A stretch of DNA of 61,724 bases, counting the filler, from Dugesia japonica (Eukaryota), in assembly GCA_001938525.1 (NCBI GenBank). It is 6 parts of 6 records of this genome, joined end to end, with 100 filler letters (N's around TTAATTAATTAA, not from the genome) between each part and the next. Parts side by side here need not be neighbours in the genome. Positions count along the whole stretch, not along the records: positions 9,250 to 17,767 come from MQRL01586718.1; 5 more parts are not named here. The stretch is one strand, 5' to 3'. A program made the translations under genes and the position numbers. Of the stretch, positions 1 through 53,720 are shown piece by piece (position 1 is the stretch's first letter; the number at the start of each line of letters is the position of its first letter). Below the pieces are notes generated by a model, which saw only the letters and a list, made by a program, of their open reading frames with translations, did not search any database and had not been told where the DNA came from.

Positions 1-749
1 TATATATATATATATATATAATTTGAAGTAATTATAAGCTTTTTGTTTAAATAAACTGGTGAAATAATAAAAACTGAAATGCTCACATTTGAAGTATTGT
101 GCGTAATTAATTCCAAAATGTATGAGAAATTTTTTCCAGTTTTTAGACTAAGAAAATCATCGGAGAAATGAACCATTTATTACCTGTATACTTAATCTGA
201 ATTAATTCAACCTCGTATTAAATTTATATTTTACACTCGAAGATTTCCAAAATAGAAAAGTCAGCCTCATTCAATCCTAATGGACACAGTTAAGAATTTG
301 TGATCCGATTAACCCATATACACTATTAATAATTAACAACGTAATTGCATACATGATAGTTTTAACAACCATATTTTTTTATACATTATGGAGCTTTGTT
401 GGTCCAATAAAACTAAATTAATTTTAACTGAAGAACCTCAATATTGTTTTCATAATTACAAAAATCTTTAAGAATAACATTAATATACATTTTAACGACT
501 TTTATACTTTTAGTTTTATATTTAACCCAAATTAGATTAATTAACTATTCATGCTTAACTATCCCTTTGGTCTAAATTTCAAACTTAAAAACTTTGGGTC
601 TTTAAACAACTAAAATTCATTATTAAAATGTAATTTAAAATAGATTAAAATGTGAACACCATAATTTAAAATGTGCAATCAACTTCAGTAAAAATATTTC
701 ACAACACTTACTAAACGTAAACTAAAATTACCAGATCAATCTCCTAAGC

Positions 750-1088
750 CAGGCGTGGCCAATAGTTTTTGTCTGTGAGCCAGATTGGAAGGAAAATATG
801 TTATATTAAAATTAAAAAAATGTTAAATATAATCTAAAAATTTTTTCGGCCATTTTGCTTAGATGTGTTATCATGTGGTAAAGACGAGAATAAAAGTTGT
901 AAATCTTTATAAAGGAATCTTTTTGCAAAAGAAAGAAGTATTGAAATTTATTCCACTAATTATTGAAATTCTAATATAAAAGCTAATATTGAATATTAAT
1001 TAACTAATATCAAAAAATGAATTGAGGGCCACATAAATTCATTATACAGGCCGGATCCGGACCGAGGGCCCTATGTTGGGCATGCCTA
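750..1088. mobile_element. hAT/Charlie-like MITE
   Basis: Imperfect TIRs CAGGCGTGGCCAA / TTGGGCATGCCTA, GGGCC-rich subterminal motifs, degenerate 8-bp flanks TCCTAAGC / CTCTTAGC; no ORF. Confidence 0.6.
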
Positions 1089-1279
1089 CTCTTAGCGTAT
1101 ACCTATATTTATCAGTGCTTAGAGAATTAAACACAGGCCAAATTGACACACGATAACTTGAAAAATAATTTTTATTTTTAATAATTTGTATTGGTAATTA
1201 TAATAAGAAATTATTTAATATAAATTTTATAATGCAATTTTTTGTATTTTTTATTTTTAATAATTTGTACTGGTAATTA

Positions 1280-1990
1280 TACCATCCTTTGACCTCGGAA
1301 TGTAGAAAGGCAATTCTAACTGCTGTCATGCAGGCCATCACAAAATCCACCAGGACTTTCTGTAGTAAGAAATGTGAAAGTAGTCCTTAAAAATTTAAAC
1401 ATTCTTCTGTGTGTAGGTTGATCCTTTTTTTGCTAAAGGAAATAAATTTTCAAATCAATCATGCCTGGTGTAAAATTGGTAAGATATATTAGAGACTTTA
1501 CCAAATGTACCATTTCCAAAGATTGTATTTTTGACAAGCTCATTTAGTGTCTCTTAATTTCGAAATTCTGTCAAGGTCATGCTCTCCAGAGTAATTAAAA
1601 TACAAAGTCCTATATCTATCAATAATGATGACAATTTCCGGAGTTGTAGGATTAGACAAGTGAACCACATCTCTGTGATGTAACAGCTTTCTGGTAATAG
1701 AGGACAACTTTGGCAAAGGAGCTAAGACATCCCTGTTCACCTGTGATTAAGTACTTCCCATCACATTTATTGGTGTAAAACAAACTGCTATCTATTCATG
1801 CTTCATTTTATTTTTGACAATTTTGGCTTTGTCAGCTTGTAGGTATGAGTCATGATAATGCTTTGGAATTACTTTTTGAATGATTCCTGCTATTGTCCTT
1901 AAGAAAGCCTTGCACTTGACATAATTATGTTGTCTGCATCTTGTTATCTGTATTTTCTCGAAATTTGTATTATTTTAAACCAAAATAAAT
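1280..1990 (-). pseudogene. Highly decayed Ty3/Gypsy integrase remnant
   Basis: Fragments KVIPKHYHDSY (Zn-finger-like) and PFYIPRSKDG (resembles the AFHPQSNG core motif), broken by frameshifts. Confidence 0.4.
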
Positions 1991-2625
1991 CGCAATTTGG
2001 TTTCCTGGCTAGGTCGTTGAAAATTCCTTTAGTAACCCTGTTTATAAAATAAAACGTTTTCATTTGTAAAAAATATTAATTAAAGATTAAAACAATTTAC
2101 TATTATATAATTGTTCAGTGAAACACATGTATAGATATATAAAATTAAAGAGGATCACAAATAAATAAAACCGCAAGGTTGATCTTTCCCCGTCTAGATC
2201 GTAATGAGAAACTAACTAGCTAACATTACATTACTGACTTGAATAAAAAATTTCACGAGAAATAAGATTCCGAAAATGTACATGAATTTCAACTGAGTTG
2301 CATTGATACAATCTGATGAATTTCTCTCAGAAATTTTCCAAGTAGAATCTAATTAATAATATTTTATGTACGAATATTATCTAAGAATAGATTACTGAAG
2401 CGTTTCTATGAGATTTGATGTACCAAAACTGTCATGCTTATTTCTAGAACCTCCAGCCACCTACATCATCTTTTACTGAAGACTTTGAAAATTATCTCTG
2501 GCATAGTTTAAATACATTTTCCAAATTAAGCAGTCTTTAGCTTTCTACTGATATAATAATTGTATAGCTGTATATTCACTGTTTAATATATTAAATCTAA
2601 TTGCTAATCACCTATCTTCCTTTAA

Positions 2626-2940
2626 TTGAACAAGTTCCATGCAAAATCATTCACTTCCACTAAGAAATATAAAAGCAATAGCGATGATCATGAAATTACC
2701 TGGGAGCTATATCGATTAGCCTAGCGCAATTGGAAAGCTCAGATGGCTGGGAATTAGAGAGGAAGTGGCACACTCTCATAATCCAGAGAGATTTTGAAAG
2801 CGCAGATAGAGACCTTCGTTGAACTGTTAAAGTAGTTCTACGAGCGTGAAAATCGCCTTGTCGAAGATATCCTTAAATTGAGGGCATGAATGCCTCCCGA
2901 TTCAGTCGTGATAGATATTGGCACGCAGACTAAACTGTGA
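2626..2940 (+). pseudogene. Accessory ORF-X copy A: coiled-coil protein with C-terminal LC8-type motif
   Basis: Read through stops: LNKF..SDDHEITWELYRLA*R...KAQIETFVELLK*FYERENRLVEDILKLRA*MPPDSVVIDIGTQTKL*. Clearly homologous to 10061-10419. Confidence 0.7.
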
Positions 2941-3051
2941 TCTGCAACTTTTCGTTGTTTACTTACTATTCTTACTTTTTTACCATGTTGTTATAAGATA
3001 CATGCTTGGTTTTTGTTCTTTTTCTGTTTTGATCTTTTTTTCTTTTACCAG

Positions 3052-3378
3052 TTACCAAGTTCCATAAATAAGTGTCATTGTTTGTTACATGGTCTAACAT
3101 TGGAGCAACATTATTATAAACAACGAGAACGAATGTTACTCAGGCACATAAAGCGGAAGAATTGTTCTATACGACAACTCGAAAACTCCTATAAAATGGA
3201 TATTGCTAATAACACCATCTAACAATTGATTCATAGAGTTGAATTCCTCACACGATTTTTGGATGACCTCGCGACACTTCATAGCTTTATCTATGCGAAC
3301 CAAAATTTGTAACAATTGGGCGACACTGACGATGCCGCCCTATTTGACTTCGACGAAGAGACAGCATCTGCTTCGTGA
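3052..3378 (+). pseudogene. Accessory ORF-Y copy A, unknown function
   Basis: Follows a pyrimidine tract and CAG. Reads LPSSINKCHCLLHGLTLEQH...LLRHIKRK...RVEFL...DTDDAALFDF, with two internal stops and AATAAA at 3391. Homologous to 9591-9940. Confidence 0.7.
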
Positions 3379-3486
3379 GAATGTTCTATAAATAAAATTA
3401 TAGCCTCTTACCGTTTTTCTTATTAGTGAAATAACGTTATATGGAGATTAATAGTGAACTCGAACCAAAGAAATACTGGTATTCAC

Positions 3487-4489
3487 TGGGGTTTCTCATT
3501 TCCCGTAAATTTTAAATCTCGGCATTTCCCGGGATCCCGGGGAGAAATATAAATATTGTAAAACATTAAATCAAATATTATTCCAGAAATATTAATTTAT
3601 TTCAACAAAAAGAAACTGTAGAAAATAATAAATTATTAAAATATGATTTTGAAAAAAATATAAATAAAACATAAATAAAAATCACAATTCGAAATTCATA
3701 ACTGTCGTAGCCCGGGGACTTTAAGATAAAACTTTTGAAAGAAATTTTTTTTTGAAATATTTTTTATTGTTTGTTCTGTTTGCCACTTGATAGTCATTAA
3801 TGCTGAATACACATTATTTAAATTTTCAGTGCGCTTTCTAGTGGCCTCGAAAATATTTTTTTTTAATTTTAATGCTTACCTAGGATTGATGTTTCACCTT
3901 CCCCCTGTTTGACATTATAAATAGCTGCATACAATTTTCGTGAAGTGTTAATTCAACTTCGCTAAATGATCTTGAGACAGCCGTCTGTGGTATCAATGAA
4001 ATGTCTTCATTACCATGACTCTCGTATATTACTTGATTATATAGTGAAGTATCACTAGCATCCTCAATGTATAGCCTTGTGAAAAGTTTTTTAGCTGTTG
4101 CATGTAAAGCATATTTGGAGGGCAAGATCAATTTGAAATTGATATCTTCAGATTCATAATGATAATTTGACGGGATGTTTAAAAGTTTAAGTAAGCCAAC
4201 TAAATTTATATTTCTGCGTTCTTGAATTCTTTGCTGCACAGATTGAAGCCTTTTAGTAGAAATTCAATTTTTCAAGTTTCAAACTGCAATGCACTCTGCA
4301 CTCTTGTTTATGTTTATGAATAAACTATCTTACATAATTAAAATAATTATTTGTCAAATGTAAAAAATTGAATAGCAAATTAAAAAAGAAAAACCCAAAA
4401 ATATAAAAAATTAAATTAAAGAAAGAAATTGATTTCCCGGGATATCACGCTATCAATTTTACCATAGGGATCCCGTTTAAGAAACACTA
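3487..4489 (-). mobile_element. Internally deleted hAT transposon
   Basis: Ends TGGGGTTTC / GAAACACTA; duplicated flank TATTCAC(T) at 3480 and 4490; subterminal TTTCCCGGGA motifs; ORF 3880-4239 (RIQERRNINLVGLL) resembles hAT transposase. Confidence 0.65.
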
Positions 4490-5054
4490 TATTCACTCAA
4501 ACCACGGATTAAAAGTTACTGACTCTGTCCTGAAAATCTACTTTAGGGACGCTAGATCAAACTCTTTGCGGGGTTCTACTAGGCGACCGAATATTTGTGT
4601 GTCGATTTCAGAATTTTTGATTTGTCATGTAACTATATTTAACAACTGATGAATTAACTCACGTTTATTAAATATATATTTCCTTCTACCAGTCCGTTGA
4701 TTAAAGTATAAAAGTAAGGACGCATAAGATGTAGCATTAGGAAATAAACGGTATTTAAGGTTAGCAGCTACAAAAGTCTTGTTTTCTAACTGAATTCAAC
4801 TGTTTATATATTACTTTTCATCAATAAATAGTAGCTCAACTTTTAAAAATTATCTATTCTAACAGATTTAGAATTTTTATGATACTCTGACACATTAATT
4901 TTATTTGCAAAACTTTCCTTATTCAAATTATTCAAACTCTTGGTGTGAGTTTGCAGTTCACCTCGGCATGGAAGCATATGATGTAAAGGTTACGCTATTA
5001 GTTTTCATTGGGTTTTTCGATACATGAGACAGTCCATCTGCACTCAATTAAGTA

Positions 5055-7748
5055 CAGTCAACCCTCCTATAACGCGACGGATACGTTCTTAGGAAACGTC
5101 GCGTTCTAGGAAATCGCGTTGTAAGAGACATGAACTCTATAGATAAAAAGAAGTTAGGTTCCAAGTATAAAAAACTGCATTTAAATTAATAAAATGAAAC
5201 TTTAATAAGTTAATATTCAAGATTTTATTAGGAAGTCTTCAGTAAAATTATAATAAATTAATAAAATTTAATAAAATAGTTTACGTTTTTAAAAATTAAG
5301 AACTATATAAAAATTCAAATTTATAAAAATTAAAACAAAACAAATGCTGATGCATATTATTTATACAAATTTTTCTTCATCACTACTAAGCGGATGATGC
5401 CGCGAACGTTTGGCTGGTGCTACATCCGAATCTGAACAACTGGAGCAATGGATAGGTTCGTTAGCTCTCTTTATCGTTATCGGCTTGACAAAATCAGTTA
5501 TTAAAGATTTTTTCATTTTTGCGAGCAAATTTTTATAAATTTCGTCATAAGGAGACAAGCAATTTTCTAAATTTCTTTTAAATTTTTGAGATCTTTCCTC
5601 CAGTGGATCATTCTCTAAAAAATAATTTGCTAACTGCTTCGCCATACCTAAACCTTTTTCAACACATTTTACAGTAAATTTCTTGGATTTATCTTCATCA
5701 TCAGATATATCTTCAGAATTACTATCTTCAATCGGNNNNNNNNNNNNNNNNNNNNNNNNNNNNNNNNNNNNNNNNNNNNNNNNNNNNNNNNNNNNNNNNN
5801 NNNNNNNNNNNNCCAATGTTATTTCATCGAACCCATCGCGTCTTATTGCGTGTGCAATATTAAGTATCTTTCCAAATCCGGCCTGAGTTGGTTCAACAGC
5901 ATCTTTCTGATTTACCATTTTGGGTAATAATACTTTCCAACAAGCATTTACCGTGGATTGACGCATTTCTTTAATTGACGATGCAACAAATTCAACACAA
6001 TACAAAATTGAGAATTGTTTCCAAACTTCGCTAATTGTAATATATATGTTTGTCTATTTTGTCTAAGATTAATTGAAACGACCTACGGATATAAATTTAT
6101 TTAAAATTCGCTATGATCCCTTGGTCCAAAGGCTGTTATAGCGAGGTAATATTAGGGGGTAAAAAGGTTATCTACACATTTGGGTGATTTAAATCACATG
6201 AATGTGAGGGCGCATTATTCAAAATTAGTAGAACTTTGAATGCTACGTTCTTTTTCTTCAAATAGTTTTCCACATCCGGAACAAAACAATGATGGAACCA
6301 ATTGTTAAATAAATTAGCCGTCATCCATGACTTTTTATTGACCCTCCAATACACAGGAAGGTTTTTTTTGTTACATCGTTTCAACGCTCATTGAATTTAA
6401 CGATCGGTTAATGAATATAGGCTTAGTCATAAGATCACCAGATGCGTTACTGCAGAAAAGTAAGGTGATCCGATCCTTAGCAGCCTTAAATACAGATGCT
6501 ATTCTTTCATTTTTTGAAATATAGGTTCTAGAGGGCATTTTTGTCCACCACAATTCTGTCTCGTCGGCGTTAAACACCTGATCGGCGGAATAGCACTTTT
6601 CTTGAATTATTTTGGAAAGTTCTCCTGGAAACAGCTTTGATCCTTCTACATCAGCAGATGCTTTTTCTCCCTGTAGTTTTATATTGTGCAAAAAATGCCA
6701 TTTTTTGAATTATTCAAACCATCCATTGCTAGCAACAAACCTATGGCTGGGTTCATCAGCTGACGATTCTCCCATTTCTTTTAAACATTTAAATATTTTT
6801 AAAGCGTTTTCTTTGAGCCTATTTCCGTTTAAAGGTAACCATTTTTTGTCATATCTTCTACCCATACTATAAGGGCTTGTTCCAGTTTTTCCATTATATT
6901 TGTTCTCGGACGAGCAGTAATTTTGGCAAGCACAGATGATCCAGATGCTACCAAATTCCTAATTATTTCTTCTGTTTGTTTTATGGTTCTAATTGTTGAC
7001 TCATTTAAATTAAAATATTTGACTACATCAGTAATCTTCTCTTGATTTTTAAGCCTATTCAAAATTTGAATTTTGGTTTGAAGTGAAATAAATTTTCGGA
7101 TTTTCTTTCATTCGGCATTTTGAATGGTATAATGATATTTTTCCTATAAATTTAAATTATATATAATTATATTATAATTGATTTATATAAAAAATCTTTC
7201 TGAACCAATTTCTTACTTACCTTTTAATTATCACTGAAACAATATTTTAATTTTTGTGTTTGGTTCTGTTCCATTCAACACCAAGACTAAACTTACGAAA
7301 AATTAATTGTTCATTGTATTTGTAGGTTCATCACTTATATCAAAACCGTCTATGTACATACTATTAAATTTTGGATAATAGAGAAAACAGAATTAAAACA
7401 AAAAGAACACCTGTTTCAACATACACATGTATAGAAAATAAAATATGTATGTATGTACATATAATAAAATTTCTTTTCATCCTAAAGTTACCACAACTGC
7501 AAAANNNNNNNNNNNNNNNNNNNNNNNNNNNNNNNNNNNNNNNNNNNNNNNNNNTGTATGTATGTACATATAATAAAATTTCTTTTCATCCTAAAGTTAC
7601 CACAACTGCAAAATAAACACACATTTTTATATTTATACACTGAGATTTTTTTAAATCGCGTTTTAGGAAAAAAACTCGCGTTATGAGAAAAATTACCGTA
7701 ATTTATAAATCGCGTTATAGCGAAAACGCGTTGTAGGAGGCTTTACTG
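5055..7748 (-). mobile_element. Tigger/pogo DNA transposon, near full length, frameshifted transposase (about 5361-7130)
   Basis: TIRs CAGTCAACCCTCCTATAACGCG / CGCGTTGTAGGAGGCTTTACTG with TA TSD; HTH region, VFNADETEL, KDRITLLFCSNASG, WMT, LILNNAPSH motifs. Confidence 0.93.
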
Positions 7749-8617
7749 TATCCATAGAAACATCGCTGGTCGTATAATATAAAACAAAGGTATTTCAATT
7801 ATGCAAAAGATTAAAGGAAATTTATCATTAGCCAGACTAAATAGGTTGCTAAAATTGCATTGAAATGCATTAATAAGGAGCTTAAGCACTGTAGAATAAT
7901 CTGAGATGTTTCAAAGCATTTGAAAATGTCTAGAGACTAATTCATCATCTAGAGACTGATTTGATAATATTCAAAAGTTCGTCTAACCCTTCATGAATTC
8001 TAAGGAACATTCATCATAGAAATTATTTGAATATTTTTGGATTATGATGAGTATCTAAGATTGGTCTAACAACCGAATTTCACTCAGTATTGGTCATATT
8101 TATTTGTTCACTTCTTCATGGTTCGGATTGAAATTCAAAGTAAAAACCAAACTAAAAATACAATTATTCTTCGGAACCAAACAATTTGAATATCAAATAT
8201 TGCATTATAAAATATTCTAATATTCTAGAAAGATCAATATACATTAAATGCAGTTGATACTACAATACTATAAAAAAGAAATTATTGAATAATAAATTTT
8301 TAATCAATTTTTTTAATTATAAATTTTTATTGTAACTTCAAAAGGTAATATTTTAAAAATGACTCTTATACTTTATATGTAGTTGTTTCTAATTTTCTAT
8401 AATAACTCGTATATTTATCAAGACGATATCTGTATATTACATAATAAAGCGTCTATGTTTTGTGTGGAAACTAATTTCCCATGACAAAGTGTATTCTTTC
8501 AATGTTGAAATGTTTTTTTTCAATAATGAATCCTATATTTTACATGTTGACTCAAAATTTAAATGTGTTGTTTTAGGATTTCGTGAGATAAAATGTAATT
8601 TTAATGTAATAGATTAC

Positions 8618-8763
8618 AGTTTTAGTGTGATGGAATGCTATTTTAGTGTGATGTATTGACGTAGAGTTTATGTGACTAATTATAATTTTAGTATATGGAT
8701 TATTGTTTTAAGGCGATGACTTAGAAAGTTTAATGTGATGAACTAAATTTTAGTGTGATGGAT
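8618..8763. repeat. Degenerate tandem repeat with core TTTTAGTGTGATG
   Basis: About 6-7 imperfect copies spaced roughly 20-25 bp apart. Confidence 0.6.
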
Positions 8764-8774
8764 TAAAATTTTAA

Positions 8775-9149
8775 AGTAGGTGGATAGTGGCGCATTGCGG
8801 CAATTTTTTTAAAGCGGTTATCGCGGGACCCACATTACGCTTGAGCTGAGTTTTTTAATCGATAATTATTGATTATCGATTTTTGATCGGATCAGTTTTT
8901 TTTGATTGGATCAGATTTTTTTTGATCAGATCAATTTTTTTAATCTTTATTTTTTATCTTTTTTTCTATTTTTTTACCTTTTTTTAATCCTTTTTTTTAC
9001 CTTTTCTTACGGAGGGAATTTTTTTTTAATTGTTTTTTTTGTTTTAATAACTTAACATTTTTTTGTTTCAATTATTGAAAATGATTTGTTTTAATTAATA
9101 CTAGAATTTTGTTGGTAATTAAAATTTTATTATTTTTTTGTGAGAAGAC
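8775..9149 (+). mobile_element. Polinton/Maverick-like terminal inverted repeat fragment
   Basis: Begins AGTAGGTGGATAGTGGCGC (18/19 identical to 28527), followed by short GATC(A/G)GATCA repeats. 5'-AG/AGT starts are typical of Polinton termini. Confidence 0.55.
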
Positions 9150-9249
9150 NNNNNNNNNNNNNNNNNNNNNNNNNNNNNNNNNNNNNNNNNNNNTTAATTA
9201 ATTAANNNNNNNNNNNNNNNNNNNNNNNNNNNNNNNNNNNNNNNNNNNN
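9150..9249. other. Artificial scaffold spacer
   Basis: 44 N + TTAATTAATTAA (stops in all six frames) + 44 N. Confidence 0.97.

Positions 9250-9313
<64 letters not shown>
9250..9313. repeat. (ATT)n microsatellite
   Basis: Perfect run at the scaffold end. Confidence 0.97.
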
Positions 9314-9315
<2 letters not shown>

Positions 9316-9590
9316 TTTGTGGTCTCACCCGAGTTGGGAATCGAAAACCAGTGGCTGTGGAAAAGACAGCCCTCTAGGGGACCCATTCAAGAATTTTAAT
9401 CCAAAGCCCCTCAGTTGGATATTCAGTGTAGAGTGGTTGACCTTCGACCCTTACGGGAGGTTCGCACTCGTACACCTTTAATTTGGGTTCATTTTTTTCC
9501 CTGATAGTTATAAACAAGTTAAACAAAAGTTATCTGAAAATATCTATTAAATAACATTTATTGTTCTTCCAAAACACCAGGCTCTAACCA

Positions 9591-9940
9591 CTATACTGGG
9601 TCAGTCACCCAAAAATCGAATGCAGCTAAGTCATCGCTGTCATTCCACTGCATCCAATCCGGGTTCCCCATCTGACTTGACAGGTCAGCTGTATATTGTT
9701 TCAAGAATTTTATCTTCCGTTGCAATATCTGGGTATTCTGCGCTTCAAGAGCCTTAGTTTTCTAGGCCAAGTCATTTTGTTTCTTAACCACTAAATCAAA
9801 TTTCTTGATTAATTGATCCCGCCGAGAGAGATGTCTTAGCAGAGCCTGGTCGGTCTTACGTTTTGAATGGCGTTCTAACAATAGACGGCTCATGATCCGA
9901 TGACATCTCCACAAACTAGTTGGTAATACAATTCGTGCCA
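9591..9940 (-). pseudogene. Accessory ORF-Y copy B
   Basis: Acceptor TTTTCTTTAG at 9941. Reads ARIVLPTSLWRCH...LLRHLSRR...RKIKFLKQYTADL...DSDDLAAFDFWVTDPV*, with one internal stop at 9762 and AATAAA at 9557-9562. Confidence 0.72.
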
Positions 9941-10060
9941 CTAAAGAAAAATTACAGTTTAGGTAGGCAACCTCCACGAAAAAAATTGGAGGATTAGATT
10001 GTAAAAGATACAAATAATAAAACGATTTATTAAATCCAATCACAAATAAAGCACGAAAAC

Positions 10061-10419
10061 TCAAGAGCGGTTAGTCTGGATACCTTTATCTATCAAAGGC
10101 GGGGCCAAAGGTATGGCTGCCCTCAATTTTAATATATTTTCTATTAATTTATTTTCCCGCTCCTGATAAGACTTGATAATTTCATTGAAGGATTTAACTT
10201 GCGCTTTCCATATCCTCTCTTGATTCTGGGTCGCTTCCACTTCCGATTTAAAAGATAAACATTTCTTCTTATAGCGCTTAACTTTAGCCTCAGATGCTGC
10301 AGTCTCAGCCTCCCGTCGCCGCTTTGCGAGTCGGTATAAATTTCACGTGAGCTCTATATCATAACTGGTTTCACGTAGTTTTTTATTCGGGCCCTGAGAT
10401 CTATTCAAGGATGAATGCA
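10061..10419 (-). pseudogene. Accessory ORF-X copy B: coiled coil ending DKGIQTNRS
   Basis: Acceptor ATTTTAG at 10420. Frame is open except one TGA at 10343-10345, where copy A has TGG (Trp). Confidence 0.72.
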
Positions 10420-10623
10420 CTAAAATGCAATATTACTCATTAACATAGATTCAAAAGCGAAATAAATTTCCTAAAGAAAGTAACTCGAAGATAAAACGCA
10501 TAAGGAAAAAATCTCCCTACTGAGATTGCGTTTGAATAAAACAATAACTTTTCAGATAACTGGAATAAAGGGTACAAAATATTTTACTAAGAACATCAGA
10601 TAAACACAAAGATAATGTTGGTC

Positions 10624-11043
10624 TTATGGAGAGATATTTGGTGTGAGCGGAGCATGGTTTTCGGCTGACCCGCCACTAGCCCTATTTCGTAAATCCCATA
10701 GAGTATTTCCGATATCAATATGAAGACTAGTATCAGGAGGCAAATGTGTGGCCGCCACGGGTAGAAAGGTAGGTCCGTCTTGCCATACTCTAGTGGATTC
10801 CCCGGTTAAAGGGTCTACAACCAAGTCAAGGTGTACGACCTCTTGGGTTCGGTCCGGTCCTCGCCAAGCATAATATGCGTTTCTTTCTACGGCATCCCAT
10901 TCCCGCTCATTGTCGGCGTCGATGGCTGGCAAGTTTGAATGATCTCGAATCACATCCGCATTCCGATCATGCTGATTATGGTAACATTTAAAAACCACTT
11001 TGTTAGTCCTGGTATCGAGAAGGGTCTCCCAGATGAAATCCAT
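10624..11043 (-). CDS. Intact 139-aa orphan ORF, putative retroelement accessory protein
   Basis: ATG-to-stop ORF, GC-richer than its flanks, directly preceded by TTATTATTATTTACAG-A-ATG. Confidence 0.6.
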   Translation of the reverse strand: MDFIWETLLDTRTNKVVFKCYHNQHDRNADVIRDHSNLPAIDADNEREWDAVERNAYYAWRGPDRTQEVVHLDLVVDPLTGESTRVWQDGPTFLPVAATHLPPDTSLHIDIGNTLWDLRNRASGGSAENHAPLTPNISP

Positions 11044-11332
11044 TCTGTAAATAATAATAACCTAAATTCCAGATTCTATGATTTATGGTTCTAAAATAAG
11101 GGGAATGATACTGATGTGACTATCTACTGGAAAGTCAAATTAGTGAATAATCTAACAATGTAGAAAGAGGCAGACCCGAAATCACAGAGTAATTAAAGGA
11201 ATGACGATATTCTACTTTGGGGCGAATTCAACAAATGAACAAAGTTTTATAAGGTTTAATTGATAAAACAATGATTCAGTAGTGTGCTTTATTATGTCAC
11301 TTTTAAACTGGTCCATGATACCAGGTTTTGGA

Positions 11333-11518
11333 TTACTCCTTGTGCTCCCCGTCGGTAGACGATTCCAACGGGAACATCTTGGCAAGACAGCCCAGGTCTG
11401 TCTCGTCGGGGTGCTCGACGATCCGAGGGAATAGCAAATAACCAATTAACTGTTTTAGACGAGCTGCGCGTCGCTGTTTTTTGATAGTGTGGAGAACTCT
11501 CTGTAACTCTGGGGTCAT
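11333..11518 (-). CDS. 61-aa basic orphan ORF, putative retroelement accessory protein
   Basis: Preceded by TTATTATTAATTGTAG-AAA-ATG; contains a KKQRRAARLK basic patch. Confidence 0.5.
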   Translation of the reverse strand: MTPELQRVLHTIKKQRRAARLKQLIGYLLFPRIVEHPDETDLGCLAKMFPLESSTDGEHKE

Positions 11519-11899
11519 TTTCTACAATTAATAATAAGGGTCAATATTTCATCCATATACCAGTTGCTACTCAAATTTACCCTGAGAGTAAAATAAAATT
11601 AACGAAAAGAAAAAATTTATATGGTGCGATAAAATTCCTGTTTGGACACGAACTCGATTAAAAACAAAATGAGTTACATAAACCCCACTATCGAATCATG
11701 CCTAGTGAATTTTATAAAGTGACGACCAACACTACCATATATTTACACAAAACTTCCCTTATTTTTACTGGGTCCTCTTTTTATAATAATTTAGGCTCGA
11801 TAGCGTCATCTAACCCCCTCTCAATCATCTCGTACTAAAAATCGTATGATCCACTTACCCGTGATTTGAGACGATGTCATAGGAAGTAAGCTGGTTCTC

Positions 11900-37494: not shown

Positions 37495-38860
37495 NNNNNN
37501 NNNNNNNNNNNNNNNNNNNNNNNNNNNNNNNNNNNNNNNNNNNNNNNNNNNNNNNNNNNNNNNNNNNNNNNNNNNNNNNNNTTAATAAGATATAATAATT
37601 AATAAGAAAATATAATTAATAAGAAATAATAAAAATACTAAAAATAATAAAATAAAAATAATAAATAAAAATAATTAAATAAAAATAATAAAGTAAAAAT
37701 AATAAAATAAAAATAATAAAATAAAAATGAAAAATAATAAAAATATTACAATAATAAAAATATTAAAATAATGAAAAATAATAAAAAAATAAATAATAAA
37801 AATATTAAATAAAAATAATAAATCGAAAAAAACAATATTAACCTTTGCTTTCTCTGGACTCATTAAATACAATTCCTGTTCTCCCATCCAGGCTTCAGCT
37901 TCACTGGCATCAAACAAATATTGCTGAGCTACCAGATTATCTTCTAAAACTGCAAAGCGTTCAAATAATTTCCTTTGTAACTCATCCCAAAGTTCCCAAA
38001 GTTCTTTCATAGCGATTTTAAATTTATCACTTTGTGGATGACCTTCAGAAATCATTATTTCTCCGTCCTATTAGAAAAATCCCAAATAAATGCAAAAAAT
38101 TTCAATTTGTTTTACTTCACAAACGGTTTCAATTCGAGGACGATGATTGTCAACTTCATTATTTAAAGTTTTTAACCGACGAATAAACTGTTGAACAGCT
38201 AACAAAGAATCTCCAATTTTGCCGTTATTTTGAACCAGATTAATTTTTTCTTCAATCCATTGTTTTTCATCTTCAATATCTCTCAAGAATTGCCTTACAC
38301 GTTTACGTTTCATGAGGTTTTCACGGCGTCCTGCTAATGGAGCTTCAACTTGAGTTAATTTAACTCGAACTTCTTGTTGCATTTGTTCAATTTCTTCTTC
38401 TCGATCAGGATATTGTTCTTTCAGTTTTACAGCGTGAGTCTGGAAACATTAGCACTTGAAATAAAATTATTACAGAAATTACTTCCATATCGGTAAGCAT
38501 TTTCCTTTTCTGTTCTAGTTCTTTGTCTTTCTTTTCTTGATCCTTCATTTGTTCATTTATTTCCACAAGACCAATTTCAGTTTCTGAATCTTCTTCAGTT
38601 GTAATAATTTGAGAACTAATATCAGTAATCCATTCATTCATAGATTTTGCTGTTTCGTTGAAAATCGTTTCTGTTAATTCAAGTAAATACAAGTGAATTC
38701 GATTTATTTAACCAATTTCACCTCTATTAGCATCAGCCATTTTCAGACTTTTATCTTGTGCTGTTTTATTCAATTCATTCCATTGCTGTGCTAATTCATC
38801 AATCTTCGATTGAGTAATATCAGCAAACTGTGGGCGTTGTTGCTTCAATTCTTCTCCATC
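29791..38860 (-). CDS. Beta-spectrin, six internal exons (38722-38860, 38483-38670, 38116-38439, 37843-38067, 32669-33247, 29791-30167)
   Basis: All GT-AG junctions join in frame. Beta-spectrin repeat signatures QQYLFDASEAEAWMGEQELYLM, KAKDEQGA, SHEMGSDYEH, INESWADLLELIETR, QRKHQAFEQE. Confidence 0.95.
31720..32174. mobile_element. hAT/Charlie-like MITE in a spectrin intron
   Basis: TIRs CAGTGTTTCCCA / TGGGAAGCACTG with perfect 8-bp TSD GTTTAAAT. Confidence 0.88.
35536..35756 (+). mobile_element. 5' LTR (221 bp) followed by PBS-like TGGCGTTCC
   Basis: TGTTAG...CTAACA inverted ends; its start matches the 3' LTR start at 49812, which follows a polypurine tract. Confidence 0.82.
36020..36440 (+). 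pseudogene. Gypsy gag fragment with CCHC-type knuckle
   Basis: ILCSGCNKPGHIRK downstream of the LTR/PBS; antisense within a spectrin intron. Confidence 0.8.
36753..37225. mobile_element. pogo/Tigger-like MITE
   Basis: TIRs TAGTCAAACCTCTTGA / TCAAGAGGTTTCACTG. Confidence 0.7.
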
Positions 38861-41144: not shown

Positions 41145-42307
41145 ATTTTCTAAAATGTTAAGTTAAATAGGTTTTTGAATCTTCTGGAAACTTGATTTAT
41201 TTTCCGTTATCATCACGTATATTAATTTCTATATTGCTTATGCATGATGTTGCAATAGGTAAATACATTCGATTATCAACTATTTTTTGTATTTACAAAT
41301 CTTCATCAGTTTTATGCTTTTCTATCGAAAGGTACAATAACATCTCCTACAATTATAGGTTCAACAAGAATACTATAGATAAATATTTGCTGATGTAACT
41401 TAACTGATGATTTTTGGATTTCTAACACCTTGTATTACACCATTCTTCATATCTGCAAGCGAATAATGTTCTTTTTCTAAGCCCAATATTCTTGACAAGA
41501 CTTTATCGAATGTGACAGTTTTGTCTTTCATTGAGAATTGAAATAAATTATTTGCTTTCAGAGAAATCGTATTAAATAGTTTAGATCCGCTTTTTGTTAA
41601 ATTTTTACTTAGTTGGTCTATTTTTGTTATGTATAATTCATCGTTTAACTGTACAGTATGATAAGTTACTTTAGAATAAGCCATTATAATTTTTACATTT
41701 TCTAATGAAGAATCATTTTTAAATAATGAATATATAACAGAAAGCCATCCTTTATCCATTTTGTTAGATGTATATCGGAATCCAAATTTATGTGCAATTT
41801 TTTCATGTTCAAATGTGAGTACATATGGATATTCACAACCAACAGTTAAATAACCTCTGAAAGATATAAAAGCATTCTCATTTTGCTTGACAGTTACGAC
41901 TTTTGATTTGGGATTAAGTGTTACAGTTATTTCATTTACTATATTTTTAGATGTCATGTATTGAATTTTAGAATTGCTATATAAAGGAAATATTTGATAT
42001 ACAAAGGAAAAATCTAACAATGCTACTTCCCAACTATCATCCATATAAATTGAATTTGGAAGCTCAAAAATGAATTTGCTAACATTATTTTCTGGATGAA
42101 TAAGTGTACAGCTTGCATCCGTCCATATTATCTTTAGTATCCCAATATCAACAATTCAATGCTAATTTGAAGTCAAAATTAGGTAATGATTGCAATCCAC
42201 CCATTGTTTATTAATATATTGGTCAAAAGCTTCAATTGTTTATTTGAAATGAGTTAAGCCTAATGCTGTACACTTGGTAAAAGTGTAAAGAAATTACTCG
42301 ATTTCAT
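41145..42307 (-). pseudogene. Polinton minor capsid protein (PX) with a 5' insertion
   Basis: FFTLLPS...HPENNVSKFIFELPNSIYMDDSWEVAL...ILGL...MYLPI...IEINIRDDNG. Confidence 0.8.
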
Positions 42308-46229: not shown

Positions 46230-49200
46230 CTAATTTTGATTTCGTTCATTATTCTTTCTTTACCGTTTCCGGTCATAATTCATATATACTCGTAACCCGT
46301 AGTTCGATTGCGTCCTCGCATTCCTTTGGTTTTGGTTCATATTTTATGATACTCGCTTGATTTTCAATACATACTTAATTCTTACTAGTTATTCTCTTAT
46401 TAGTCCTTACTCCATTAGTTTCCACTTTGAGGGTCGTCTATTAGTCTTTATTTTATTATCTAGTTCAATCTTAATACATTGTAATTTTTACTGGTTTGTT
46501 GTTATTAACAGGAGAAATTTATCAGTAGTTGTCATGTTTAGAAAATATTCTTAATACCCTTAATAATTTAATTACGAAAAAATTACTTCCTAGAAATTCC
46601 AATGTTTTTCAGATAATAATTAATTCAAAATTTGTTAATGAAACATATATTGCTAAGATAGGGTACAGCAAAAACTTTAAAATGACATAACCCATCAGTA
46701 CTTACATGAGCCATGAATCGATCTGGAGCAGGCACTGTGTAAAATAGAATTATCACGATCACCAATTGTATTGACGTGGCGTATTCAACTTAATCATTAC
46801 AACTTAATCATAACAAAGATTATTATTCCGGATTCTATGTCCTCCGTGATTTTGCAAGTAAGAAATCGTTGCAAAACACCAATTTTAAAACCAGTTATTA
46901 CATTTTGCGATAAATTTCGATCCAAAATTTGATTGAGTTAAAATTTGTTTGATTTTCTTCTGAAATTGAAAAGGTATTTATACTAGTTTTTTTTCCACCC
47001 CGTTCTTTTTATTGGTTATTGGGCATCGTACTATTCCTGTAGCGTTCTTATTAGCGTGATTGTCACATGAGTTCTTCTTATTAGTTGAAACTTTGGAATT
47101 CCAAAATTATTGGAGTTCCATGGGTCAATTTTCAAACCCTGGTATCTTCTTTTTTAGTCTTCCTAAAATTTTTTAATTTAGACTTTCGAAATCTCCGAGT
47201 TTTTATTGACTATAATTTTCTTAATTGCTAATTTTGTCTCAATGGGAAGTCTTCATTTTCCTATATTTTCGTATAAATTTAATTTTCGTTTTTTTTAAAA
47301 TAAATCATTTTAATTTGCATAATTTATTTTATTTAAATATTTTCTTCTTAATTAATAATTAGAAGTTCATTTTTTGTTTTTCTGATCTAAAATTAATTTA
47401 ATTTCTCCATTTTCTTCTACTTATTTATTCATTAAATTTATTTTCTCTTCAATTATTAATTCAATATGATTTCCTTATTTTTGCTTAATGAATTAATTTC
47501 TAAGTTGCTATTTATTATTTGTTTGTCGTGTTAATAGCTCTTATTACTTCTTTTCTTCTTTGACTTTCTTATTGTTTCCGGCTGTAATCCTAGATTTTGC
47601 TGGTTATATTTTAGCTCCTTAATCTGGTTTTCTCTTTAGTTATTGCTTTCTTTAATCAAATTGTGTCCTTCCTTTGTCTGGATTCTTCGTTTTCTTTTCT
47701 TGTGGTACTCTTTCAAATTTTCGGATTTGGTGTTTCACCCCAACAAATGTATTATATCAATTTTATTTTACATATCAAATTGTCTCAAAATACATTTGTG
47801 AACCGTTATTGATGTAGCATGGCAAAATAATTGATGAGTGAATCAATGAATTTAACCAAATTTTTTTGAATTGTAAAAACAATATTTTAATCAATTTAAA
47901 TTTAAAATTTCTTTTAAAGCTTAAGTGCTTTTTAATAACATTGATTTATTTACATTCTTCTTGCCATTTACAACCACCAATTTGTAACATTAGTGCCAAC
48001 AGTTTAGTTTTTAATTTTTCAGATTTAGGTTCTTTTATGTATAGTCTAGCATTGGACATATGTTTCAAAATCTGCTCTTGAAAGAGCATCTTCATTCAGA
48101 TTTTCTTCAACTTTCTTGTATTCTATTTTAATATCCAAACTGCTAATTTTGAAATTGCTATGTTATTAGTCTTTTAGTCTTCAGCATAAACATTTGCATT
48201 TCATGATTACTTCTAATAAATAATGTTTAACATATTCTGCGAAATAAATAATCACCAAAAGTTCTTTCCTGGTAATGCAATAATCCAGCTCATGTTTACT
48301 TATGGCTTTAGATCCATAAGCAATAACTCTTTCTTTACAATCGTTATCAATTTGACTTAAAACTACACATATTTTATCAAATATGGCATTAGTATTCAAT
48401 ATGAATTCTTTAGAAACATTGGGAAATACTACAACTGGAGCATTTATTAGTTGAGATTTCAAATTTTTAAAAGAAATTTTGCACTTTTGTCCAGCATATT
48501 TTTTTCTGGCTACTATCAAATAGATTTTCTAAACCTTTTGAATACTTTGCGTAATCCTTTATAAATTTCCTATATTAATTTGCGAGGCCTATAAAACTTA
48601 TCAACGTTTTAACAAATTTTGGGGTTTCAAAATTAAAACTTGCTTCAATTTTTTGTTATCAGTATGTATTCATTTTGAATGAATAATATGACCCAGAAAT
48701 TTAATCTCGGTTTTCATGAAATTACATTTAGATGGATTTATTTTTAAAATGGCTTTTTAATACGTTTTAAAACATTCTTAATTTCTTTTAGTGTTCTTTA
48801 ATAGTTTCGGAAAAATTTAGTCCATATTTTTTTCCAATTTAAGGGAGCTATAACTTAAGTCTTCAATTTTTGAAAAGCAATATGAACAGCTGCAATTCAA
48901 AATGAAATTATATTAACACAATATTGTGCATCTTTTATCGGTAAAGCAGTTTTATATTTTGCATTATCTGTTAATTCAATTTGATAGTAAGCATACTAGT
49001 AAAATATTTGGCTCCATATAAAATATCCTTCATTTCTTCAGTGTTTGGAATGAGAAAAATTGGTCTTTCTGTAACTTCATTTAATAATATATAATCTAAG
49101 CAAAGTCATATTTCATCATTGTCTCGTTTTTCTACGCAAACCAAAGAAGCATTTCAAGGTGAGTAACATTTACTTATAAATCCATTTATTTCCATTTCCT

Positions 49201-49560
49201 TAATATTTTGCTCAATTTTATCTATTAAATGTTAAGGCTAACATTAATTTCAATTAGTTTACTATTTGTTATTATTTCATGTTTTACAATATTAGTTTTT
49301 CATATTTTTTTTAAAATCATCAATATCATTTCATCTATAATAATTTCAATTTCTAAAGTTTTAGGTTTAAATTTAATTACATTAACAGATTCCTCATTGT
49401 GTGTTTCATTAATGGTGAGTCAATAGATTTATTCCACAAGGAACATGAAGTGAGATTTCTTTAGCAACATAAAAAATGTTCTCCATTTTTTCATTAAGCT
49501 TTACATTTAAATGTACTTATCCCAAAACTATTAAAGAACTATTATTCGCACATTTGACAT
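46230..49560 (-). mobile_element. Decayed Ty3/Gypsy pol (RT-RNase H-integrase)
   Basis: RT remnants at about 48600-49200; RNase H FILNTNA...VLSQ..RVIAYGSK..YCITRKELL at 48181-48519; integrase remnants downstream. Confidence 0.85.
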
Positions 49561-52866: not shown

Positions 52867-53720
52867 ATGTTACCTATTTTAGCGATAATTTTTAAGAACT
52901 TCATTGAAAATAAAATTATTCTCAAAGGTGAGAAGAAGATACATCTTTGGTTCAGATATATAAATGATATTTTCTTTGTTACTAATTCTTCGTTAGAAAA
53001 TATTTTACAACTAGCCCATAGTATTATTGATAACATTNNNNNNNNNNNNNNNNNNNNNNNNNNNNNNNNNNNNNNNNNNNNNNNNNNNNNNNNNNNNNNN
53101 NNNNNNNNNNNNNNNNNNNNNNNNNNNNNNNNNNNNNNNNNNNNNNNNNNNNNNNNNNNNNNNNNNNNNNNNNNNNNNNNNNNNNNNNNNNNNNNNNNNN
53201 NNNNNNNNNNNNNNNNNNNNNNNNNNNNNNNNNNNNNNNNNNNNNGAGACTGAATTCCCTCAGGTTGATGAAAAATAAATTTCTAAATAATGGTTATCCA
53301 AATAGAATTGTATATAAACGTCTATACTCAAATACAGAATTTAACAAAATCAAACACAAGACAAATACAGTAATAAAATTACCTTTTATTAATGAGAAAT
53401 GTAGCCAAATCGTGCAAAGTATAAAAAAATTAAAAAAGCGAAACTCAAACACAGTCCAAGAATTATATTTAAAACGCAAGCACCTTTGGGTATCCTATTA
53501 CAGAAACTTAGACAGAATTTTTGTGATCCCAAATGCATTTGTGATGGTAGAAATATATGCAACAAAAAAATATCACTTACAAAATAACATGCACCTTATC
53601 ATTCAGAATCATTCAGAACCATCTATACAAGAATTAAAGAACATCTCAAACAGAAAGAAAGTGAAGTCTTGAAACACTTTCAAAACAAACATAATGTTTT
53701 GACAGAAACTTACATTATAT
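52867..53720 (+). mobile_element. Penelope-like retroelement fragment (RT and GIY-YIG endonuclease remnants)
   Basis: PILAIIF..FIE...WFRYINDIF; FLNNGYP; LPFI; TRIKEHL...KHF. Confidence 0.8.

What the first reader, a model, noticed from the sequence alone, without database searches (positions are those of the whole stretch)
10073..10090. Conserved dynein light chain LC8-type motif at the C-terminus of ORF-X
Seen: both copies end with coiled coil, Pro-rich linker, then ID-x-G-x-QT: DKGIQTN here and DIGTQTK at 2914-2931. Established: the LC8/DYNLL ligand consensus is about [DS]-K-x-[TVI]-Q-[TV], usually in disordered sequence beside a coiled coil, and viral proteins such as rabies P, Ebola VP35 and ASFV p54 use such motifs. 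Inference: a mobile-element protein that recruits LC8 for dimerisation or trafficking. The motif is kept while the linker diverges.
Basis: partly seen in the sequence, partly recalled or inferred. Interest (0 to 1): 0.75.

Follow-up and report, generated by a model that had tools for sequence, protein, structure and literature searches.

The report
Mobile-element coiled coil with LC8 motif
A many-copy, probably mobile gene family in what is likely a flatworm genome encodes a predicted two-stranded coiled coil ending in a conserved short tail that likely docks the universal dimer-clamp protein LC8, a host hub used by several viruses; binding is untested and both copies seen here are broken.

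Summary
Two diverged, decayed copies of one exon end in I-D-K-G-I-Q-T-N (10093-10070, minus) and I-D-I-G-T-Q-T-K (2911-2934, plus); tblastn E 4e-11. Reads show a many-copy family in two species. At the -1 position 99.5% of contig depth in one DNA run, and all of it in a second species' run, carries a Thr codon. So the family anchor is TQT and this window's Ile is private. The exon evolved under protein constraint (dN 0.35, dS 1.14). Identity between copies is 5 of 7 codons in the motif, 1 of 7 in the linker, 18 of 29 in the coiled coil. Models give a parallel homodimeric coiled coil, then an unstructured tail holding the motif: the Swallow / rabies-P layout. Against: +2 is Asn or Lys, seen in 1 of 79 binders and 4 of 32 non-binders; GTQT alone does not discriminate; no LC8 complex could be modelled; no expression was seen; the element class is unresolved. 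Verdict: a likely LC8 client (about 0.6) clamped as a dimer rather than transported; a new member of a known kind.

The parts
10070..10093 (-). LC8-type 8-residue motif, copy 2 (I-D-K-G-I-Q-T-N in this copy; other family copies carry a Thr codon at -1, place 10080)
10094..10114 (-). Pro-rich linker of 7 residues, poorly conserved (1 of 7 comparable codons give the same residue as in copy 1)
10112..10339 (-). predicted long helix forming a parallel homodimeric coiled coil (residues 2-77 of the 93-codon frame)
10061..10419 (-). exon X, copy 2: putative terminal exon; acceptor inferred at 10420/10419, premature stop at 10345-10343, own stop 10063-10061, AATAAA at 10031
   Evidence: (depth drop and loose ends at 10426-10439); splice site inferred, no RNA joint seen
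9591..9940 (-). exon Y, copy 2: second putative terminal exon (coiled-coil-like, ends D-D-x-A-x-F-D-F), acceptor at 9940 in the same phase as exon X, one internal stop, AATAAA at 9562
10624..11043 (-). 139-codon upstream ORF, candidate first exon; first 65 residues 51% identical to one metagenome protein (P0001); link to exon X not shown
2911..2934 (+). LC8-type 8-residue motif, copy 1 (I-D-I-G-T-Q-T-K)
2662..2940 (+). exon X, copy 1: decayed (two stops, a frameshift, an internal gap), 40% identical to copy 2
3052..3378 (+). exon Y, copy 1: decayed, 31% identical to copy 2, acceptor at 3052, AATAAA at 3391

Best explanation
The tail is likely a working LC8 (dynein light chain) docking site on a protein of a many-copy, probably mobile gene family: two chains are predicted to pair through a parallel coiled coil, which would hold two unstructured tails side by side so that one LC8 dimer would clamp both and stabilise the dimer. 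Shown: the motif in two diverged copies, a Thr-Gln-Thr anchor at -1 across the family, many copies in two species, protein-level constraint on the exon. Predicted: the helix, the homodimer, the unstructured tail. Inferred: LC8 binding, the clamp role (by analogy with Swallow and rabies P), splicing of the exon to an upstream exon, and mobility. The two window copies are dead; the function would lie in intact family members, now or in the past.
For: Homologous copies keep I, D, G, Q, T while 6 of 7 linker residues differ; Gly is kept through a synonymous change. dN 0.35 against dS 1.14 over 43 codons. At place 10080, 37 contigs and 4759.5 of 4784.4 summed depth in run X1, and 6 contigs and 35 of 35 in run X8 of another species, read the base that gives Thr. 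The bin holding the motif has the highest depth of 30 bins in X1, and depth falls from 4784 at 10080 to 843 at 10098 in the linker. D at -4 with K at -3 occurs in 13 of 79 published binders and 0 of 32 non-binders (counted by eye; Fisher p 0.018); close published binders are NEK9 HSKGTQTA, SLC9A2 REKGTQTS, ZFPM1 SDKGVQTP and rabies P EDKSTQTT. AlphaFold2: helix 2-76 (76 residues with pLDDT 90 or more), tail coil at about 60. Homodimer score 0.39 against best control 0.00, runs agreeing in at least 84% of contacts, pLDDT at least 78; that mark was reached by 21 of 30 solved pairs and 0 of 23 single chains in microbes, 17 of 29 and 0 of 30 in eukaryotes. Swallow and rabies P have a self-association domain about 15 residues before the site (PMC12017986). 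No shared RNA structure over the motif (z -1.22 and -0.23).
Against: +2 is Asn or Lys: 1 of 79 binders against 4 of 32 non-binders (p 0.024). GTQT alone does not discriminate (7 of 79 against 4 of 32), nor does D at -4 alone (31 of 79 against 7 of 32). Only 7 of 19 matrix-predicted sites bound in the source paper. Motif identity (5 of 7) is no higher than in the coiled coil (18 of 29), and the counts are tiny. The read table shows only 40 of 313 variant rows, so invariance of Q and T in the family was not seen directly. In X8 the motif bin is not a depth peak (33.6; highest bin 246). The homodimer mark was reached by only 7 of 16 animal pairs and 1 of 7 without an older solved relative, and coiled coils may pass from memory. 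The linker is shorter than in Swallow and rabies P. Dynein light chain domains are expanded in flukes and tapeworms (PMC3510090), so the partner need not be canonical LC8.
Confidence: 0.6

Rival explanations
1. The tail is conserved as protein but does not bind LC8: it binds another partner (a flatworm-specific light-chain paralogue, a C-terminus reader, exon Y's product) or caps the coiled coil, and the likeness to LC8 sites is incidental.
For: Unfavourable +2 residue in both copies; anchor-bearing non-binders are common (32 listed, 4 with GTQT); motif conservation equals that of the coiled coil.
Against: The conserved residues are the ones LC8 reads (-4, -1, 0, +1); the family has Thr at -1; D-x-x-T-Q-T in the last 20 residues has a chance near 7e-5.
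Confidence: 0.22
2. LC8 binds, but to carry the element's protein or particle on dynein towards the nucleus rather than to clamp a dimer.
For: Foamy virus Gag needs its LC8 interaction for transport of incoming capsids to the centrosome (PMC3705263, passages).
Against: [quoted passage not shown]
Confidence: 0.08
3. The stretch is kept for a DNA or RNA signal (a splice donor inside the Gly codon at 10083, or a 3'-end signal), and the peptide likeness is a by-product.
For: A weak donor candidate at 10083 (score 5.4) would join in frame to exon Y; the DNA of the two copies is also alike just after the stop; the X1 depth peak is a DNA-level signal.
Against: Copy 1 lacks that GT while keeping Gly; no conserved RNA fold; no Rfam match at E up to 1 in 1-16000; dN well below dS.
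Confidence: 0.07
4. LC8 question aside, the gene is not mobile but an expanded, fast-turning-over host gene family with pseudogenes.
For: It appears to have introns and alternative terminal exons (inferred); no termini, target-site duplication or enzyme gene was tied to it.
Against: 848 contigs of 80-100% identity in one DNA run and 122 in another species; both window copies are decayed, opposite in orientation and set among transposon remains; 2 and 0 reads in two poly(A) RNA runs, which is no test unless those runs are shown to hold the organism.
Confidence: 0.15

Closest known systems
Drosophila Swallow-type LC8 clients (weak coiled coil followed by one TQT site)
   Same: One motif downstream of a predicted parallel two-stranded coiled coil, in an unstructured stretch.
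   Different: Linker of 6-7 residues against 15; site ends 2-3 residues before the stop; +2 is Asn or Lys, not Asp; no sequence homology; binding unmeasured.
Viral LC8 clients: rabies P, Ebola VP35, ASFV p54/E183L (Table S4 of PMC6607443); foamy virus Gag
   Same: A selfish-element protein with an oligomerisation domain next to a TQT-type site; rabies P shares D-K at -4/-3.
   Different: Those are polymerase cofactors or structural proteins of infectious viruses with measured binding; this is an orphan, apparently spliced accessory gene of an unclassified repeat. The Gag interaction maps to a coiled coil, and no TQT site is named in the passages read.
Human clients with K-G-[TV]-Q-T sites: NEK9, SLC9A2, ZFPM1
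   Same: Near-identical -3 to +1 residues.
   Different: Host genes; their +2 residues are Ala, Ser, Pro.
Burro / GYPSM1 giant gypsy elements of planarians
   Same: A likely similar host group, many copies, accessory ORFs and an Smc (coiled-coil) motif are described (PMC6431247 section 7); a gypsy-RT-like remnant lies 3.3 kb upstream of copy 2 on the same strand.
   Different: No Burro sequence was available to compare; no paired LTR or Burro domain was found; the RT remnant is truncated and not shown to belong to the cassette.

Membership tests
LC8 client motif (Jespersen 2019 rules) | Anchor: mid-sized H-bonding or hydrophobic residue at -1 and +1, Gln at 0 | tested here: met
   IQT in copy 2, TQT in copy 1, Thr codon at -1 in other copies
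LC8 client motif (Jespersen 2019 rules) | Polar residue such as Asp at -4, large residue at -3, no bulky aromatic at -2, no internal Pro | tested here: met
   D-K-G and D-I-G
LC8 client motif (Jespersen 2019 rules) | Favoured, not required: Pro, Asp or Glu at +2 | tested here: not met
   Asn and Lys; 1 of 79 binders, 4 of 32 non-binders
LC8 client motif (Jespersen 2019 rules) | Motif lies in a disordered stretch | tested here: met
   Predicted only: coil from residue 77, pLDDT about 60, single-sequence model
Swallow-type client | Self-association domain close to the site | tested here: met
   Predicted parallel homodimer, residues 10-77, 0.39 against control 0.00
LC8 client motif (Jespersen 2019 rules) | Motif conserved across the family | tested here: inconclusive
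   Kept in two diverged copies; -1 is Thr in two species; other positions not displayed (40 of 313 variant rows)
LC8 client motif (Jespersen 2019 rules) | Anchor-dependent binding to LC8 | not testable with these tools
Transposable element | Many dispersed, diverged, decaying copies | tested here: met
   848 and 122 contigs laid; two broken copies in the window; dispersion beyond this window not shown
Transposable element | Defined termini, target-site duplication or mobility enzyme | tested here: inconclusive
   No terminal repeats or second copy of the 9316-9600 end in the window; Pfam blank on six frames of 1-5400 and 9320-15320
Burro / gypsy LTR element | Paired LTRs around gag-PR-RT-RH-IN with accessory ORFs | tested here: inconclusive
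   RT-like remnant at 14378-14846 recognised from recall and by likeness to two other remnants, no Pfam hit; no genome or Burro sequence to compare
Polinton / Maverick | pPolB, integrase, capsid and protease genes in one element with terminal inverted repeats | not tested
   Polinton-like pieces at 18.6-19.5 kb are a recalled resemblance, Pfam blank, and 7.5 kb from the cassette

The most novel reading that the evidence does not exclude
A selfish-element family encodes an abundant LC8-binding coiled-coil dimer as a decoy that draws LC8 away from, or docks onto, the host's nuclear PIWI silencing machinery, an anti-silencing trick aimed at the same hub that dimerises the PICTS/SFiNX complex in flies, with alternative splicing to exon Y as an off switch.
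Probability: 0.05. Interest if true: 0.85.

Novelty: new member of a known kind. Interest (0 to 1): 0.42.

Why it matters
LC8 is a known target of viruses and a known part of transposon silencing in flies (PMC7861614). Three full-text searches listed no paper on a transposon-encoded TQT-type client, judged from titles and abstract starts. A confirmed case would put a genomic parasite on the same hub, give a first function to an orphan gene family present in many copies in two species, and offer a cheap test (an 8-12 residue peptide against host LC8). It would not be a new mechanism: coiled coil plus one TQT site is the textbook layout.

Tried and rejected
No genome is held for the window, so copies could not be collected from an assembly. 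Protein searches with the 93-residue frame found nothing at 164-2000 or 51-163 residues, in JGI metagenome contigs, viral contigs or PDB sequences; the Atlas gave only short hypothetical or coiled-coil clusters at 0.89-0.91 with low recognition. The 139-residue ORF gave 3 hits; I kept P0001 and dropped P0002 and P0003 as repeat-driven matches. It found nothing in the Atlas, viral contigs or, as an alignment with P0001, metagenome contigs. Its model is poor (pLDDT 45) and fold searches gave no match at E 0.001 or better. Pfam: no meaningful hit for exon X, exon Y or the upstream ORFs. Rfam: none. RNA structure over the motif rejected. No RNA holder was listed; two poly(A) runs gave 2 and 0 reads, which is no test of expression; 4 of 24 listed runs were laid. 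A motif search in the text of PMC12057147 returned nothing. The original Burro paper is not held. Earlier scan findings by place and sequence: none. An LC8-peptide model was not run for lack of an LC8 sequence.

Full report
Observation. The window is AT-rich, repeat-laden eukaryotic DNA. A beta-spectrin exon at 32651-33196 (Pfam E 1e-22) has its best named hits in Taenia (73%) and Cichlidogyrus (68%), so the host is likely a flatworm; a planarian is my inference from composition and repeat content. At 10090-10073 on the minus strand the frame reads D-K-G-I-Q-T, three residues before its stop. At 2914-2931 on the plus strand it reads D-I-G-T-Q-T, two residues before its stop. The two are homologous (E 4e-11), and so is a second coding block behind each, here called exon Y (31% over 109 columns, E 5e-8). 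Both copies are broken: copy 1 by stops at 2833-2835 and 2887-2889 and a frameshift near 2790, copy 2 by a stop at 10345-10343.

Chance. What counts is position and retention. A loose match in the last 20 residues of a coding frame has a chance near 1.4e-3, and D-x-x-T-Q-T near 7e-5. Over the 43 comparable codons the copies differ with dN 0.35 and dS 1.14, so the exon was under protein constraint while the two lineages diverged. Identity is 18 of 29 in the coiled coil, 1 of 7 in the linker and 5 of 7 in the motif. The motif thus stands out from the linker but not from the coiled coil, and the counts are small.

The wider family. Four of 24 listed runs were laid on 9880-11150 at 80% identity or more. 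A DNA run of organism A gave 848 contigs (51 at 99% or more, 379 under 90%), and a run of organism B gave 122, so this is a many-copy family in two species; depth is not a copy number. At place 10080, the middle base of the -1 codon, 37 contigs holding 4759.5 of 4784.4 depth in X1 and 6 contigs holding 35 of 35 in X8 read the base that gives Thr. The family anchor is therefore T-Q-T, as in copy 1, and the Ile of this copy is private. It is the only displayed difference within 10073-10090, but only 40 of 313 rows are displayed, so invariance of the other positions was not seen. In X1 the bin with the motif has the highest depth of 30 bins, with a sixfold fall 18 bases away in the linker; in X8 it is not a peak. 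Two poly(A) runs gave 2 and 0 reads, which does not test expression.

Gene anatomy (inferred). Depth falls tenfold and other copies run on in unlike sequence at 10426-10439, just outside a TTTTAG at 10420, which fits a splice acceptor, although my simple scan did not flag it. The scan did flag acceptors at 9940 (copy 2) and 3052 (copy 1) at the start of exon Y, and AATAAA follows exon X and exon Y in copy 2 and exon Y in copy 1. In copy 2 both acceptors are in the same phase, which suggests alternative terminal exons on a shared first exon. The 139-codon ORF upstream is the candidate; its first 65 residues have one relative, P0001 (51%, E 4e-16), and no counterpart was found upstream of copy 1. 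No RNA joint was seen.

Structure. AlphaFold2 on the 93-residue frame gives one helix over residues 2-76 and coil from 77 at pLDDT about 60. Two copies fold as a parallel in-register coiled coil over residues 10-77, score 0.39 against best control 0.00, with runs agreeing in at least 84% of contacts and pLDDT at least 78. That mark was reached by 21 of 30 solved pairs and 0 of 23 single chains in microbes, and 17 of 29 and 0 of 30 in eukaryotes, but by only 1 of 7 without an older solved relative. The motif is residues 84-91, outside the interface.

Fit to LC8 rules. PMC6607443 (outline, sections 4, 9 and 12, a supplement search and the whole of Table S4 read) sets the anchor at -1/0/+1, favours Asp at -4 and a large residue at -3, allows small residues at -2, and favours Pro, Asp or Glu at +2. 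Both copies meet all but the last. By my count from Table S4, D-K at -4/-3 is in 13 of 79 binders and 0 of 32 non-binders (p 0.018); Asn or Lys at +2 in 1 of 79 and 4 of 32 (p 0.024, against); GTQT in 7 of 79 and 4 of 32 (no discrimination); Ile at -1 in 7 of 79 and 3 of 32. These are 9 unadjusted tests. The paper found that only 7 of 19 matrix-predicted sites bound, and that an adjacent coiled coil can rescue a weak site. The LC8-peptide complex itself could not be modelled here, so binding rests on rules and architecture.

Mechanism. The best reading (0.6) is the dimer clamp: the coiled coil aligns two tails and one LC8 dimer binds both, as for Swallow and rabies P, where the self-association domain lies about 15 residues upstream (PMC12017986, passages). 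[quoted passage not shown] A conserved tail with another partner gets 0.22; light-chain domains are expanded in flukes and tapeworms (PMC3510090, passages). A nucleic-acid signal gets 0.07: there is a weak donor candidate at 10083, but copy 1 lacks it and no RNA fold is shared.

What element. Unresolved. No terminal repeats, no second copy of the end near 9316, and no Pfam enzyme domain were found around either copy. A truncated gypsy-RT-like remnant at 14378-14846 lies on the same strand as copy 2; the label is recalled and backed only by likeness to two other remnants in the window. Burro elements of planarians carry accessory ORFs and an Smc motif (PMC6431247, passages and section 7), but no Burro sequence could be compared, and the original paper is not held, so its supplements may bear on this. 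PMC11410931 and PMC8532177 (passages) gave background only, including nuclear PIWI silencing of LTR elements and Polintons. A host gene family is not excluded (0.15).

Novelty and score. The layout is a known kind. Searches for LC8 with retrotransposon, transposase or transposable element (listings only) showed the host side, Panoramix binding LC8 through two TQT sites (PMC7861614, passages), and no element-encoded client. PMC12057147 was seen as abstract and outline only. Earlier scan notes on other genomes show that LC8-type motifs are flagged often; I did not test them. The boldest reading left open is an anti-silencing decoy (0.05); that Panoramix is confined to flies is recalled, not checked. 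Interest 0.42: real, strengthened by the family data, cheap to test, but a predicted short motif in dead copies of an unclassified repeat.

Noticed in passing
window 10083 (minus) to 9940: A weak splice-donor candidate inside the Gly codon of the motif would join in frame to exon Y and remove the Q-T anchor; absent from copy 1.
   Followed up: partly
window 9591-9940 (minus) and 3052-3378 (plus): Exon Y ends in a conserved acidic-aromatic tail, D-D-x-A-x-F-D-F, in both copies; it may be a second short linear motif.
   Followed up: no
window 13991-14362 (minus): ORF with a PAM2-like stretch at residues 27-37 (Pfam PF07145, E 0.1, below the cut-off), next to the RT-like remnant.
   Followed up: no
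window 10849-11043 (minus): The first 65 residues of the upstream ORF form a small conserved orphan domain shared with P0001; its opening hairpin recalls a WW domain (from memory; no hit).
   Followed up: partly
window 11180-11580 (minus) and 11488-12230 (plus): Further decayed coding-like frames on both strands upstream of copy 2; Pfam blank.
   Followed up: partly
window 14378-14846 (minus), 22511-22979 (plus), 48985-49231 (minus): Three mutually similar decayed gypsy-RT-like fragments (label recalled).
   Followed up: partly
window 5361-7107 (minus): Decayed pogo/Tigger-like transposase: DDE_1 at 6175-6387 (E 2e-14), weak CENP-B and Tc5 HTH hits.
   Followed up: no
window 18599-19524 and 41400-42044 (minus): ORFs resembling a Polinton-type cysteine protease and minor capsid proteins (recalled resemblance; Pfam blank).
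   Followed up: no
window 29790-38448 (minus): Host beta-spectrin exons interleaved with repeat remnants.
   Followed up: partly
window 15300-16600: Array of a 10-base satellite unit.
   Followed up: no
window 1300-2080 (minus): Decayed frames that recall an ISL2EU/Harbinger-type transposase, divergent from copy 1; Pfam blank.
   Followed up: partly
window 52867-53672 (plus): Frames that recall a Penelope-type reverse transcriptase region (from memory; not tested beyond one blank Pfam scan of the second ORF).
   Followed up: no
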